IMG/VR virus record: IMGVR_UViG_3300035117_000094
Span: 39,589-103,588 of that record
Strand: one strand, 5' to 3'
Origin: a virus
DNA length: 64,000 nt
Shown: piece by piece, positions 20,991 through 64,000 of the stretch
Position numbering within the stretch: position 1 is the first letter of the stretch
How the letters are laid out: each line of letters begins with the position of its first letter
Program-made: the position numbers and the translations under genes
The notes under the pieces: model-generated
What the model was told of the DNA's origin: nothing
Database searches by the model: none
What the model saw: only the letters and a program-made list of their open reading frames with translations

Positions 20991-21063
20991 CGGCCGGTAG
21001 CTCAACGGCAGAGCGCCCCGGGAGGAACCGGGGAAGACCTAGGTTCGAGTCCTGGCCGGCCAC
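20991..21063 (+). ncRNA. tRNA-like RNA with non-canonical anticodon loop (GGAGGAAC)
   Basis: Acceptor CGGCCGG/CCGGCCA, D arm GCTC/GAGC, T arm CTAGG-TTCGAGT-CCTGG, no U33. Confidence 0.8.
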
Positions 21064-21307: not shown

Positions 21308-21412
21308 GACCGGGCCGGTAGCTCAGCGGATCAGAGCAGCAGTGGCCACTGTGGCGATTCGTCGTCATGACAAGAGAGCAGGACGCGGGTTCGAGTCCCG
21401 CCCGGCCCGGTC
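21308..21412 (+). ncRNA. tRNA-like RNA with 11-bp extended acceptor stem and rebuilt anticodon region
   Basis: GACCGGGCCGG/CCGGCCCGGTC; TA-GCTC..GAGC; GCGGG-TTCGAGT-CCCGC. Confidence 0.8.
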
Positions 21413-57922: not shown

Positions 57923-59590
57923 CTACGCTACGGTCTTGCCGAGGTCATAGCCCCTGTGCCGCCTGTTGAGCACGTACGCCGCCAGGGTGCCGCTTGTCAC
58001 GGGCGTGATGTCCGACTCGCTGTCGCGCCGCGACCACGCCTTGCCGCCGTCACCGAGTACCCGGGTCTGCGCCCGGCCCATCGCGTGCCACAGGGTCGGG
58101 GCGCCCTCCTCGCCGAAGTGGGAGATCATCCCCGCCTTGACCTGCTGCATGAACCAGGCGAAGGCCGCCGCCTCTTCAGCGGCCCCGATCTCTATAAGCC
58201 GGTCGCCCCACTTTTTCTTCCCTTCCTGGATGATTCCCGCCGCCGGCCCGCTCTTGGGCATCGCGACGCCGATCGGGTGCCACTTCCGGTAGAGCCGGTC
58301 CAGCTCGTCCAGCACCCAGTCCGACCCGGAGCGGGAGTCGTCGCGGGGGATCTCGATGACGACGGGGTCCTTAACGCTGCGCGACCAGGCGGAGGAGATG
58401 GTGGCGCTCTTGCCGTCCTCGTCGATGTCGCAGGCGAAGGCGATCGGCTGGACGGGGAAGCCCGGGTTCGCTACGGTGAGGGACTTCCACTTCTCCTGGC
58501 TGATGACGGACCAGGCTTCCTCGTCGGCTGGCCACTCGCCGACGCCGTTCCGCTCGCGGTCGAACTCGCCCTCGGGCATCTTGTGCAGCTCGCGGCGGGT
58601 GAACGACGTCCGGATCCGGTAGCCGGTGCCCGGGTTGGACTTGGCCCAGGACCGGGGATCGTCACGGTCGTCGTGCTTAGCGCACGTGATGTAGTAGTTG
58701 GTGCGGCGCCCGTTAACCTCGTCGCGGGGGCAGTCATCGGTGTGGGGGCTGATGCTGTACTCGGCGCCGAACATCTCCGGGGCCTTGCGGAGCATGTCCT
58801 TGCGGGCCTTGGCCAGCTGGAACGAGTCCTTCAGGCCAGCGGACCCGGCGAGGATGGTCTGCGGGTTCGGCATGGCGGACATGGTGGGCATGCTGGCCCC
58901 GACCTGCTCGTCCGTCAGGATCATCGCCTCGTCGTAGATGAGGCAGTCAGCGCTGAACCCCCGGCCGCCGCTCGACCCCTGCCGGGCGTGGAAGTACAGG
59001 GTGCTGGCCACCCGGCGACGGATCTGCCGTCCCCCGGAGCCGAAGATCAGGGTCGGCTGGGCGAACAGCTCGATGGCCTCCTCGCCGTGCGACCCGGCGA
59101 TCCTCTTCACGCGGCGCCGGAGGGCCGGGTACTCGTTCAGCACCTTCTTCAGCCGGCGGAAGTGGTTGAGGGAGGTCTTGAACTGGTGACTAGTGTGAAT
59201 AAGCGTTTCCTCGCCGATCACGAACATGCCCGCCAGCTCGCGTACTTCGAGGATCGTACCCTTCCCGTTCTGGCGGGGTACTATAAGCAGGCAGTCAGGA
59301 GCGGCCCACGTGCCATCCGGCTTCACCGACAGGATGTTCGTGACGGACCACTTCTGCCACGGGTCCAGCTCGTAGCCGAAGCCCTCTGCCCAGGCAAGCG
59401 CGTCCACGGCCTGAGCCTCGCCGCAGCCAGTCTCGCGGCGCTTCTCGTTAGCCTCAATGAGGCACATGACGCAGTCTTCGGCCGGGAGCTTGTGCCGGTC
59501 CGGCTCGACGAAGAAACGGGGAACCTGGCTGCCGAACAGCGGGCCGTCGATCGTAGTGCCGTCCGGCAGCTCGATCAGCTCAGCCTTCAC
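57923..59590 (-). CDS. terL: terminase large subunit
   Basis: PRQNGKG Walker A, LIYDEA Walker B, FACDID nuclease. Confidence 0.95.
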   Translation of the reverse strand: MKAELIELPDGTTIDGPLFGSQVPRFFVEPDRHKLPAEDCVMCLIEANEKRRETGCGEAQAVDALAWAEGFGYELDPWQKWSVTNILSVKPDGTWAAPDCLLIVPRQNGKGTILEVRELAGMFVIGEETLIHTSHQFKTSLNHFRRLKKVLNEYPALRRRVKRIAGSHGEEAIELFAQPTLIFGSGGRQIRRRVASTLYFHARQGSSGGRGFSADCLIYDEAMILTDEQVGASMPTMSAMPNPQTILAGSAGLKDSFQLAKARKDMLRKAPEMFGAEYSISPHTDDCPRDEVNGRRTNYYITCAKHDDRDDPRSWAKSNPGTGYRIRTSFTRRELHKMPEGEFDRERNGVGEWPADEEAWSVISQEKWKSLTVANPGFPVQPIAFACDIDEDGKSATISSAWSRSVKDPVVIEIPRDDSRSGSDWVLDELDRLYRKWHPIGVAMPKSGPAAGIIQEGKKKWGDRLIEIGAAEEAAAFAWFMQQVKAGMISHFGEEGAPTLWHAMGRAQTRVLGDGGKAWSRRDSESDITPVTSGTLAAYVLNRRHRGYDLGKTVA

Positions 59591-59753
59591 GGGTGACCGC
59601 CGTGAGCCGCAGTTCCTGGATCCTGCGCACGGCGGCCCGCGCGAGGCCCCTGTAAGCATCCGGGAGCAGCGGCACGCCGCGCCTGTCGCACAGCCACAGG
59701 TTCTCGTCTATCAGCGCGCAGGCTACCGCCTCAACGACCTCGTCCGTTGTCAC
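59580..59753 (-). CDS. small leaderless hypothetical protein
   Basis: TAGAAT 6 nt before GTG; read by hand. Confidence 0.45.
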   Translation of the reverse strand: MTTDEVVEAVACALIDENLWLCDRRGVPLLPDAYRGLARAAVRRIQELRLTAVTREG

Positions 59754-62564: not shown

Positions 62565-62993
62565 GGGCGGGTCCGTATGCGCCCACCGCGCGTGCACCTC
62601 GGCTGCCCGGGCGGCGAGGCCCGGATCTGGCTCCTCGTTGCGGCCCGCCCCGGTGATGACGGCGATGTCGGCGCCGAGCAGGGCGGCAAGGACGTTCTCG
62701 GCGCCGTCCACGGCGATCTTCAGGCGCCGCCGCTCAGCGCGCAGGAGGGCATGCCCATTGCCGGCTACCCAGCCGCGAACGTGCATGACGTGCTCACGCA
62801 GGAGCCGGCGGCACTCGATCAGGTCCAGGTCCTGGCGGCGCTCCCGGAGCAGGGGCAGCAGCTCGTGCTTCCGCATGTCAGCTAGCGAGGCGGTCTCCGT
62901 CAGGATCACCCGGCCCGCAGGATCGTCAAGCCACCACTGGCTTACCTGGTAAGTCTTGCCGTACTGCCGGGGCCAGACCAGCCAGCGGATCAT
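62541..62993 (-). CDS. small P-loop protein (terminase-like Walker A)
   Basis: PRQYGKT; IAVDG. Confidence 0.6.
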   Translation of the reverse strand: MIRWLVWPRQYGKTYQVSQWWLDDPAGRVILTETASLADMRKHELLPLLRERRQDLDLIECRRLLREHVMHVRGWVAGNGHALLRAERRRLKIAVDGAENVLAALLGADIAVITGAGRNEEPDPGLAARAAEVHARWAHTDPPGIDSTVS

Positions 62994-63211
62994 GCCCGGC
63001 CGCCTGACCCGTGCTCGCGCCGGCGCTGGTCGGGCACGTTGTCCTGCACTTCCAGCGGCTCGACGTGGACGCCCTTGAAAGTCTTGCGGAGACGGCCGGC
63101 TTCCTCATCGGCGCTGCCCCGGGTGACGTGCGGGTTGACCAGCTCATCAGTCTCGACCCCGGTGCCGTTCTTGTCCCTGATGAACGTCCCGAAGATCTTC
63201 GGCTTCGCCAT
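62990..63211 (-). CDS. hypothetical protein
   Basis: GAGGAG SD. Confidence 0.55.
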   Translation of the reverse strand: MAKPKIFGTFIRDKNGTGVETDELVNPHVTRGSADEEAGRLRKTFKGVHVEPLEVQDNVPDQRRREHGSGGRA

Positions 63212-63242
63212 GTCGTGCTCCTCTCTCGGCGCCTGTCCTGCG

Positions 63243-63324
63243 TGGAGCTGCCGGGAGTCGAACCCGGGTGCGGTCCGGGCCTCCGACGTGCGGCTTTAAC
63301 CCGGCGACGAATCCGTCCAGCCCC
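63243..63324 (-). ncRNA. minimal tmRNA-like RNA (tRNA-like domain only)
   Basis: GGGGCTG/CAGCTCC-A with G3-U70, unpaired GGATTCG D-loop, CCGGG-TTCGACT-CCCGG. Confidence 0.8.
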
Positions 63325-63331
63325 CTGCTAC

Positions 63332-63399
63332 CATTGCCGCCCGGATTCGAACCGGTCCCCTCCGTGAGGGGCGTGCCATCCCTGATGCACCGGGCTGAT
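63332..63399 (-). ncRNA. degenerate tRNA-like element
   Basis: D stem GTGC/GCAC, CCCCTC-ACG-GAGGGG, CCGG-TTCGAAT-CCGG, poor acceptor stem. Confidence 0.55.
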
Positions 63400-63412
63400 C
63401 CCGTGAGCGTGG

Positions 63413-63592
63413 TCAGCGCTCCCAAGCCCGGACTGCTAGCGCCGGACCTTCAGCATACCCGGCCCTGCGCAGTACCTCGCGCGCCACGGCGGCAGCCTCG
63501 TCCCGCTCGTCGGCGGCGATTTGCCCGGGGCTGCGCAGCGGCAGGTAGTCCAGCAGGAAGATCCCGGAGTCGTAGAGCAGGTCAGCGGCCAT
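63413..63592 (-). CDS. 59-aa leaderless hypothetical protein
   Basis: TACACT 6 nt before ATG; read by hand. Confidence 0.5.
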   Translation of the reverse strand: MAADLLYDSGIFLLDYLPLRSPGQIAADERDEAAAVAREVLRRAGYAEGPALAVRAWER

Positions 63593-64000
63593 GAGGGCAG
63601 TGTATAACGGCCTGGCAAGCCCTCGCGAAAGCCCCGGAAACCAGGCACATTCGCGTGAATTACCCTGGATAATGGCTAGCCCGGCAGGATCCGACGAATT
63701 ACCCGGAGATCCGTAAAGAGACTGATACGGAGCGTTACTAGCAGGGCAAGACTGCCGAGCTGGTCGTTGTCACGCTGCGCTGACCTGGCGTTACGACGAG
63801 TGCTCGAACAAAAGTAGGACGGTTTGCGGACTGATTAAGCTACGGTGGCGTAACCTACGATAGCGTAAGTAGTTGCACGTGCATCTATGCAGGTCAGAGG
63901 CCCGTTTGGAAATCAAACTCGCCAGGATGTCACTGCCTGCGACGAGGGGCGACCCTCTGTTGTCGAAGGGGCTTTCGAATCGGGGAGAGAAAACCGTCAC

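What the first reader, a model, noticed from the sequence alone, without database searches (positions are those of the whole stretch)
63243..63324. Phage mini-tmRNA: alanine-accepting tRNA-like domain with the mRNA-like domain deleted
Seen (minus strand): GGGGCTG GACGGATTCGTC G CCGGGTT AAAG CCG CACGT CGG A GGCCCGG ACCGCAC CCGGG TTCGACT CCCGG CAGCTCC A. The 7-bp acceptor stem has G3-U70 and A73, the D-loop has no stem and contains GGATTCG, and the T arm is canonical. Established: these features define the tmRNA (ssrA) tRNA-like domain that binds SmpB and is charged by AlaRS. Here P2 (CCGGGTT/GGCCCGG) is capped by a tiny hairpin, with no pseudoknots or tag ORF. Full tmRNAs occur in some mycobacteriophages and tag-less tmRNAs in jakobid/oomycete mitochondria; I know of no phage TLD-only form. 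Inference: it could act as an SmpB/EF-Tu sponge that blocks host trans-translation, or add Ala at stalled ribosomes without a degradation tag.
Basis: partly seen in the sequence, partly recalled or inferred. Interest (0 to 1): 0.88.

Follow-up and report, generated by a model that had tools for sequence, protein, structure and literature searches.

The report
Phage tag-less mini-tmRNA, DS6A type
This 82-base phage gene encodes only the alanine-accepting, tRNA-like end of the bacterial ribosome-rescue RNA (tmRNA); it is a real, conserved RNA, but one of a kind already described in mycobacteriophage DS6A.

Summary
Window 63243-63324 (minus strand) is a complete tmRNA tRNA-like domain (TLD). A 7-bp helix with a tiny hairpin stands where the roughly 320-nt coding and pseudoknot region should be. 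The Rfam tmRNA model gives 46.5 bits (threshold 47). ARAGORN finds nothing.

It is not a one-off deletion. At least 120 viral contigs carry the same design. So do the phage's own relatives, found through their terminase rather than through the RNA. All helices covary: 96% of cells are paired, against 41-58% in slid controls. G3·U70 was present in 107 of 107 sequences when that pair was left free in the search. This argues that alanine charging is under selection.

Mycobacteriophage DS6A's "TLD only" tmRNA was published in 2009 and noted again in 2014 and 2025, and it is reported to inhibit host tmRNA. This scan has also found such mini-tmRNAs before on other DNA.

My reading: a charged decoy that takes host SmpB and stalled ribosomes from host tmRNA, so nascent proteins are not SsrA-tagged. 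Function was not tested here. I class it as a new member of a known kind, of moderate interest.

The parts
63243..63324 (-). Whole mini-tmRNA gene (82 nt up to discriminator A; CCA not encoded, the next bases are CGC)
   Evidence: RF00023 46.5 bits, model 1-374. Own model R1 68.9 bits, E about 2e-12.
63318..63324 (-). Acceptor stem, 5' strand (GGGGCUG), including G3 of the G3·U70 pair
   Evidence: Read directly. Pairs 4-6 covary in the family while G3·U70 is invariant.
63309..63317 (-). D-loop analogue (GACGGAUUC) with the GG and UUCG signature of tmRNA
   Evidence: Rfam alignment. GG and UCG are invariant in alignments A2 and A4.
63298..63308 (-). P2 helix, 5' strand (G17 to U27)
   Evidence: The P2 pairs all show changes on both sides in the family.
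63282..63297 (-). A-rich internal loop (AAAG) plus 3-bp capping hairpin CCG-CACGU-CGG and A43. This is the conserved family motif U-A-A-R-R-C-C ... G-G-A
   Evidence: Column counts on 63 long-class sequences: A 53/63, A 47/63, CC 55 and 53/63, GG 53 and 52/63.
63269..63281 (-). P2 helix, 3' strand, with an AC bulge and A56 of the G·A pair
63251..63267 (-). T arm (5 bp, loop UUCGACU)
   Evidence: 100% of cells paired and 4 of 5 pairs changed on both sides in the family.
63243..63250 (-). Acceptor stem, 3' strand (CAGCUCC), plus discriminator A
63413..63592 (-). Context: upstream 59-aa ORF on the same strand, no family match
62990..63211 (-). Context: downstream 73-aa ORF with a purine-rich stretch (GAGAGAGGAG) that looks like a ribosome-binding site. 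It opens the arm that leads to the large terminase (57923-59659), portal, protease and capsid genes

Best explanation
This is a functional phage gene for a TLD-only (CDS-less) tmRNA of the DS6A type. Inferred steps, none shown here: it is transcribed with the rightward-to-leftward gene arm. It is cut out like a tRNA (RNase P at the 5' end; 3' trimming and CCA addition, since CCA is not encoded). Host AlaRS charges it with alanine through G3·U70 and A73. Host SmpB binds it and EF-Tu delivers it. Because it has no resume codon or tag frame, it occupies SmpB and stalled ribosomes in place of host tmRNA. Nascent chains then receive at most untagged alanine instead of the SsrA degradation tag. The net effect is suppression of host trans-translation tagging during infection.
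For: Anatomy: full TLD by the Rfam tmRNA model. The 92-sequence model-guided alignment A4 has 96.4% of cells paired against 41-58% when partners are slid. 16 of 21 pairs change on both sides, and the covariation score is 0.621 against about 0.08. RNAalifold finds the acceptor, P2 and T helices independently. Alanine identity: with positions 1-7 and 66-70 left free in the search pattern, 107 of 107 unique sequences with a good acceptor stem have G3·U70. In the same set pair 4 is GC 80, CG 16, AU 5, UA 4, GU 2. Relatives: phages found through the terminase protein, not the RNA, also carry it. The closest, L258 (68% TerL identity), has it at the same place near the genome end, directly after a tRNA-Met. 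Seven others have it as the last gene of arrays of 21-29 tRNAs. Cultured phages: Streptomyces phage Shaeky has it unannotated inside its tRNA array, at 59.3 bits, above the Rfam threshold. Literature: the DS6A TLD-only form is reported to inhibit endogenous tmRNA in E. coli (PMC4131195; PMC11915505). A TLD fragment with SmpB drives polyalanine synthesis without mRNA in vitro (PMC3929946).
Against: No promoter-like or terminator-like site was found nearby. This copy departs from the consensus at the base of P2: U·C instead of the second G·A/A·G pair, an AC bulge, and GCAC instead of GGAC. That could weaken SmpB binding. The copy in the closest relative, L258, is shorter and scores lower (42.8 bits), so this lineage may be decaying. 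Streptomyces phage Enygma carries a mini form and a full-length tmRNA together, which fits poorly with a general inhibitor of trans-translation. The primary paper (Mao et al. 2009) could not be read.
Confidence: 0.55

Rival explanations
1. Off-ribosome SmpB sponge. The RNA simply binds and titrates SmpB, so that host tmRNA is destabilised and inactive. Charging and ribosome entry play no part.
For: Hudson et al. summarise Mao et al. [quoted passage not shown] The conserved inner motif could be an additional protein contact.
Against: G3·U70 is kept in 107 of 107 sequences when unconstrained, while neighbouring pairs covary freely. A pure SmpB sponge has no need of the AlaRS identity pair. Enygma carries a full tmRNA as well.
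Confidence: 0.17
2. Productive tag-free rescue. The selected benefit is not inhibition but faster recycling of ribosomes stalled on the many broken mRNAs of an infected cell. One or several alanines are added and the chain is then released by ArfB-type factors, so phage proteins are spared proteolysis.
For: TLD plus SmpB cycles on ribosomes in vitro, making polyalanine without template. CDS-less tmRNAs persist in some mitochondria and plastids, in mitochondria together with SmpB. The mini form sits in tRNA arrays and coexists with a full phage tmRNA.
Against: No release step is known for a peptidyl-Ala-TLD with an empty A site. The one reported experiment showed inhibition.
Confidence: 0.15
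3. Cis-acting or decaying element. It is a tRNA-like processing site that cuts the polycistronic transcript, or a relic with no function in trans in this particular phage.
For: It lies between two ORFs of one strand, next to a degenerate tRNA-like stretch. L258's copy is shortened and its D loop is degenerate. 134 of 159 unique family members have no tRNA within 300 nt.
Against: All TLD features are intact here. Family-wide covariation and the invariant G3·U70 indicate selection on the RNA itself.
Confidence: 0.08
4. Attachment site (attP) or remnant of integration into a host ssrA gene.
For: The 3' 29 nt match a Mycobacterium tmRNA 3' end at 27 of 29 positions. Cluster K mycobacteriophages, which integrate at the tmRNA gene, match only this 3' half (PMC10865867).
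Against: The 5' half of the TLD is present too. No tyrosine or serine integrase was found in the 103.6-kb record. Relatives place the element in tRNA arrays.
Confidence: 0.02

Closest known systems
Mycobacteriophage DS6A 'TLD only' tmRNA (tmRNA Website ID 11587; Mao et al. 2009; Hudson, Lau and Williams 2014; JN698994 28478-28560)
   Same: Phage-encoded, about 80 nt, with a full TLD including G3·U70 and A73. P2 is capped by a tiny hairpin and there is no CDS. Both share the inner motif AAA(A/G)CCGCACG and the GCAC linker. They are 73% identical, and the same model scores both (67.9 and 68.9 bits).
   Different: The host lineage is unknown here. Genome position differs: near the genome end upstream of the terminase here, mid-genome before a DNA polymerase III gene in DS6A. 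This copy has an AC bulge in P2. DS6A is reported as temperate, integrating at a tRNA-Lys gene (PMC10865867), whereas no integrase was found here.
Full-length tmRNA (ssrA, Rfam RF00023), including phage copies (Bxz1-type mycobacteriophages, Streptomyces phages, Gordonia phage GMA2)
   Same: The TLD aligns end to end with the model. The TLD halves match a Mycobacterium tmRNA at 16/19 and 27/29 positions.
   Different: It lacks the resume codon, the tag frame, the stop codon and all four pseudoknots, about 290 nt in all.
CDS-less tmRNAs of organelles (mitochondrial forms; about 65-bp plastid forms of Mallomonadaceae; PMC11915505)
   Same: A tRNA-like domain alone, with no tag frame.
   Different: Those are organelle genes of reduced genomes, taken to act with the organelle's own SmpB. 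This one is a second, phage-borne copy entering a cell that has a normal tmRNA.
Engineered TLD fragments (Thermus TLD: 5' 25 nt plus 3' 34 nt joined by UUCG, PDB 2CZJ; Shimizu and Ueda 2006)
   Same: Same design. The natural 63-nt phage class even uses a 6-bp P2 with a UUCG loop. These fragments bind SmpB and support peptidyl transfer and polyalanine synthesis in vitro.
   Different: They are laboratory constructs. The window's form has an extra conserved internal loop and hairpin.

Membership tests
tmRNA (ssrA, RF00023) | tRNA-like domain: 7-bp acceptor stem with G3·U70, discriminator A73, T arm, D loop without a stem (GGAUUCG) | tested here: met
   46.5 bits against a threshold of 47.
tmRNA (ssrA, RF00023) | mRNA-like domain: resume codon, tag reading frame, stop codon | tested here: not met
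   32 nt replace 320 model positions. The only stop triplet lies inside P2 (read).
tmRNA (ssrA, RF00023) | Pseudoknots PK1-PK4 | tested here: not met
   There is no room for them. The interior is one helix with a 3-bp hairpin.
tmRNA (ssrA, RF00023) | Alanylation by AlaRS and binding of SmpB and EF-Tu | not testable with these tools
   Only indirect evidence: G3·U70 in 107 of 107 sequences when unconstrained.
TLD-only (CDS-less) phage tmRNA, DS6A type | Complete TLD, total length under about 90 nt, P2 closed by a short hairpin, no CDS | tested here: met
TLD-only (CDS-less) phage tmRNA, DS6A type | Homology to the DS6A element | tested here: met
   73% identity, a shared inner motif and linker, and both matched by model R1.
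TLD-only (CDS-less) phage tmRNA, DS6A type | Encoded by a phage and conserved rather than a one-off deletion | tested here: met
   Virus record with terminase, portal and capsid genes. Present in terminase-defined relatives. Covariation.
TLD-only (CDS-less) phage tmRNA, DS6A type | Inhibits host trans-translation | not testable with these tools
   Reported for the DS6A form only.
attP of an ssrA-integrating phage | Adjacent integrase, and only the 3' part of ssrA present | tested here: not met
   No PF00589 or PF00239 match in the record. Both TLD halves are present.
tRNA-Ala | D stem and anticodon arm with an Ala anticodon | tested here: not met
   No tRNA call by ARAGORN or Rfam at this site.

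The most novel reading that the evidence does not exclude
TLD-only tmRNAs are a widespread class of phage genes that are charged with alanine and act on the ribosome. With host SmpB they enter stalled ribosomes and add untagged alanine(s), freeing ribosomes or sparing phage proteins from SsrA-directed proteolysis. The conserved inner loop-hairpin motif (UAARRCC...GGA) would be a second SmpB or ribosome contact, possibly derived from the region just upstream of the resume codon of actinobacterial tmRNA (AUAAGC|GCC in the four full tmRNAs).
Probability: 0.25. Interest if true: 0.65.

Novelty: new member of a known kind. Interest (0 to 1): 0.35.

Why it matters
Trans-translation is the main ribosome-rescue and quality-control pathway of bacteria, and it is a drug target. 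A natural, phage-evolved minimal RNA that engages AlaRS, SmpB and perhaps the ribosome shows how small a working tRNA-like domain can be. It also suggests that many phages manipulate host tagging of incomplete proteins. In practical terms, these genes are missed by ARAGORN and are left unannotated in deposited phage genomes (Shaeky, Enygma). This single instance adds little beyond DS6A. The value lies in the breadth of the family and in the invariant G3·U70, which points to charging.

Tried and rejected
- ARAGORN, at default and lowered thresholds, found no tmRNA and only implausible tRNA calls over 63200-63440.
- Folding energy against shuffles was not significant (z -0.81), so it gives no support.
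- The promoter and terminator scan of 62800-64000 found nothing.
- Mao et al. 2009 is not held; its content is cited only through PMC4131195 and PMC11915505.
- Searches for 'mini-tmRNA' and 'tmRNA-like' with 'phage' found no further description of such a family.
- The MAFFT alignment of 56 sequences misplaced the 5' ends. I replaced it with a subset alignment, a covariance model and a model-guided alignment.
- The attP reading was rejected.
- The tag-ORF reading was rejected: the only stop lies inside P2 and it is not conserved.
- A phage-encoded SmpB was sought and not found.
- The idea that the element always sits beside tRNAs was rejected: only 25 of 159 unique family members have a tRNA within 300 nt.
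- The looser pattern on bacterial genomes returned many unrelated tRNA-like hits, which I set aside.

Full report
**What is there**

- The Rfam tmRNA model (RF00023) aligns from its first to its last position. Its central 320 positions are replaced by 32 nt. The score is 46.5 bits against a gathering score of 47, with E 3.6e-17 and 1.1e-18 over the whole record.
- The acceptor stem has 7 bp with G3·U70 and A73. The T arm is canonical. The D region carries GGAUUCG.
- P2 has 7 bp, plus two more pairs beyond an AC bulge, plus the conserved G·A pair. It is capped by a 3-bp hairpin.
- The only stop triplet lies inside P2, so there is no tag frame.
- ARAGORN sees nothing.
- The folding energy is no better than shuffles, so the case rests on the covariance model and on comparison with other sequences.

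**Surroundings**

- The element lies in a 200-nt gap between a 59-aa ORF and a 73-aa ORF on the same strand.
- It sits about 3.6 kb upstream of the large terminase. Portal, protease and capsid genes follow.
- It is about 700 nt from the contig end. That end is probably the true genome end, because the closest relative's contig begins at the homologous position with a shared TCTCTCCCCGATT.
- The record has no integrase, no SmpB and no full-length tmRNA. It has six tRNA genes.

**It is a family, not an accident**

- A strict pattern found 17 more viral contigs.
- There are two size classes. One is about 63-65 nt, with P2 a plain 6-bp hairpin that often has a UUCG loop. The other is about 78-82 nt and adds an A-rich internal loop and a tiny hairpin. 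The window belongs to the second class.
- I built covariance model R1 from 21 sequences and aligned 92 matches to it.
- On that alignment 96.4% of cells form standard pairs, against 41-58% when partners are slid. 16 of 21 pairs change on both sides. The covariation score is 0.621 against about 0.08. This alignment is fitted to the model's structure, so it leans towards it; RNAalifold predicting its own structure on the same alignment also recovers the acceptor, P2 and T helices.
- The first patterns fixed G3·U70, so I repeated the scan with acceptor positions 1-7 and 66-70 left free. Of 111 unique hits, 107 had a good acceptor stem, and all 107 had G3·U70. Pair 4 varied among GC, CG, AU, UA and GU. 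G3·U70 is the established major identity element for AlaRS, so charging appears to be under selection.
- The inner motif U-A-A-R-R-C-C ... G-G-A is conserved in sequence beyond what pairing needs.

**Relatives of this phage**

I found these through the terminase protein, independently of the RNA.

- The closest, L258 (68% identity), has a shorter copy (69 nt, 42.8 bits). It sits at the same place near the genome end, directly after a tRNA-Met.
- Eight others (L260-L267, 49-52% identity) have copies scoring 55-83 bits. In seven of them the copy is the last gene of an array of 21-29 tRNAs, convergent with the terminase gene.
- No full-length tmRNA appears in these loci among the matches listed.
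- Across the whole family, however, only 25 of 159 unique elements lie within 300 nt of a tRNA. A solitary position like the window's is the usual one.

**Cultured phages and bacteria**

- Streptomyces phage Shaeky carries an unannotated copy inside its tRNA array, at 59.3 bits, above the Rfam threshold.
- Streptomyces phage Enygma carries an unannotated mini copy in its tRNA array and also a full-length tmRNA.
- Bacterial genomes that hold a mini copy (a Mycobacterium MAG, Actinomadura, Hamadaea, Nostoc) also have a normal tmRNA elsewhere.

**What is already known**

- Hudson, Lau and Williams (2014) list mycobacteriophage DS6A as 'TLD only'. Citing Mao et al. 2009, they note that a similar molecule, chargeable or not, strongly inhibits tmRNA, perhaps by titrating SmpB.
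- The 2025 tmRNA database paper repeats that the DS6A form inhibits endogenous tmRNA in E. coli. It also reports plastid CDS-less forms of about 65 bp.
- The DS6A element is 73% identical to the window's and shares its inner motif and GCAC linker.
- This scan's earlier notes also record such mini-tmRNAs on other DNA.
- I found no paper describing the breadth of the phage family. That is an absence within the library searched, not proof.

**How it most likely works**

- Shown: the anatomy, the conservation and the invariant alanine identity pair.
- Inferred: tRNA-like processing, CCA addition, alanylation, binding of SmpB and EF-Tu, and entry into stalled ribosomes.
- With no resume codon, the RNA cannot deliver a tag. 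It would therefore compete with host tmRNA and suppress SsrA tagging.
- In vitro, a TLD fragment with SmpB makes polyalanine without mRNA, so ribosome entry is plausible.
- The invariant G3·U70 argues against a purely off-ribosome sponge.
- The coexistence with a full phage tmRNA in Enygma argues against a simple general inhibitor and keeps productive tag-free rescue open.
- This copy's deviations at the base of P2, and the shortened copy in L258, leave some room for decay in this lineage.

**Verdict**

The function is plausible but untested, and the novelty claim is wrong. It is a new member of a known kind.

Noticed in passing
window 63332-63399 (-): A degenerate tRNA-like stretch lies 8 nt upstream of the mini-tmRNA. 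It has a T arm (CCGG-UUCGAAU-CCGG), a possible D arm and a 5-6-bp stem with a short loop. No tRNA call comes from ARAGORN or Rfam; the only match is a weak mascRNA-like one of 14.9 bits. In the closest relative, L258, a proper tRNA-Met occupies this position (622-694).
   Followed up: partly
window 20991-21063 (+) and 21311-21410 (+): Two odd tRNA genes. ARAGORN reads one with a 4-base anticodon (AGGA). The other is a 100-nt tRNA-Gln(CUG) with about 37 nt where the Rfam tRNA model expects 13 in the anticodon arm (46.7 bits).
   Followed up: no
window 63975-63995 (-) and L258 5-25: Both contigs end at homologous positions and share TCTCTCCCCGATT about 10 nt from the end. This suggests the true physical genome end, not an assembly break.
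   Followed up: partly
L286 1446-1523 (PP358745 88032-88112) and PP358745 100256-100536: Streptomyces phage Enygma has an unannotated mini-tmRNA in its tRNA array and also a full-length tmRNA (92.9 bits) in the same genome.
   Followed up: partly
L020 3001-3079 (MT701595 42932-43013): Streptomyces phage Shaeky has an unannotated mini-tmRNA (59.3 bits by Rfam) between its annotated tRNA-Phe and tRNA-Leu.
   Followed up: yes
KR063281 60389-60800 (-), locus L287: Gordonia phage GMA2 (103 kb) has an unannotated full-length tmRNA (94.6 bits) at the head of its tRNA array. It overlaps the annotated hypothetical 'Orf58'.
   Followed up: no
L158, L164, L167, L171, L181, L185, L190, L215, L220, L223 (bacterial genome contigs): Acidimicrobiia and 'Candidatus Poriferisodalis' genomes carry 67-nt tRNA-like genes that appear to have little or no D arm. 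Their anticodon-loop-like sequence is CUCUAAA or CUGUAAA. The loose pattern picked them up, and they are unrelated to the mini-tmRNA family.
   Followed up: no
L284 1455-1532 (MH910036 49692-49767): Arthrobacter phage Hestia's annotated 'tRNA-OTHER (Undet)' matches model R1 only weakly (34 bits) and RF00023 not at all. It shares the T arm and acceptor 3' end with the window's element.
   Followed up: partly
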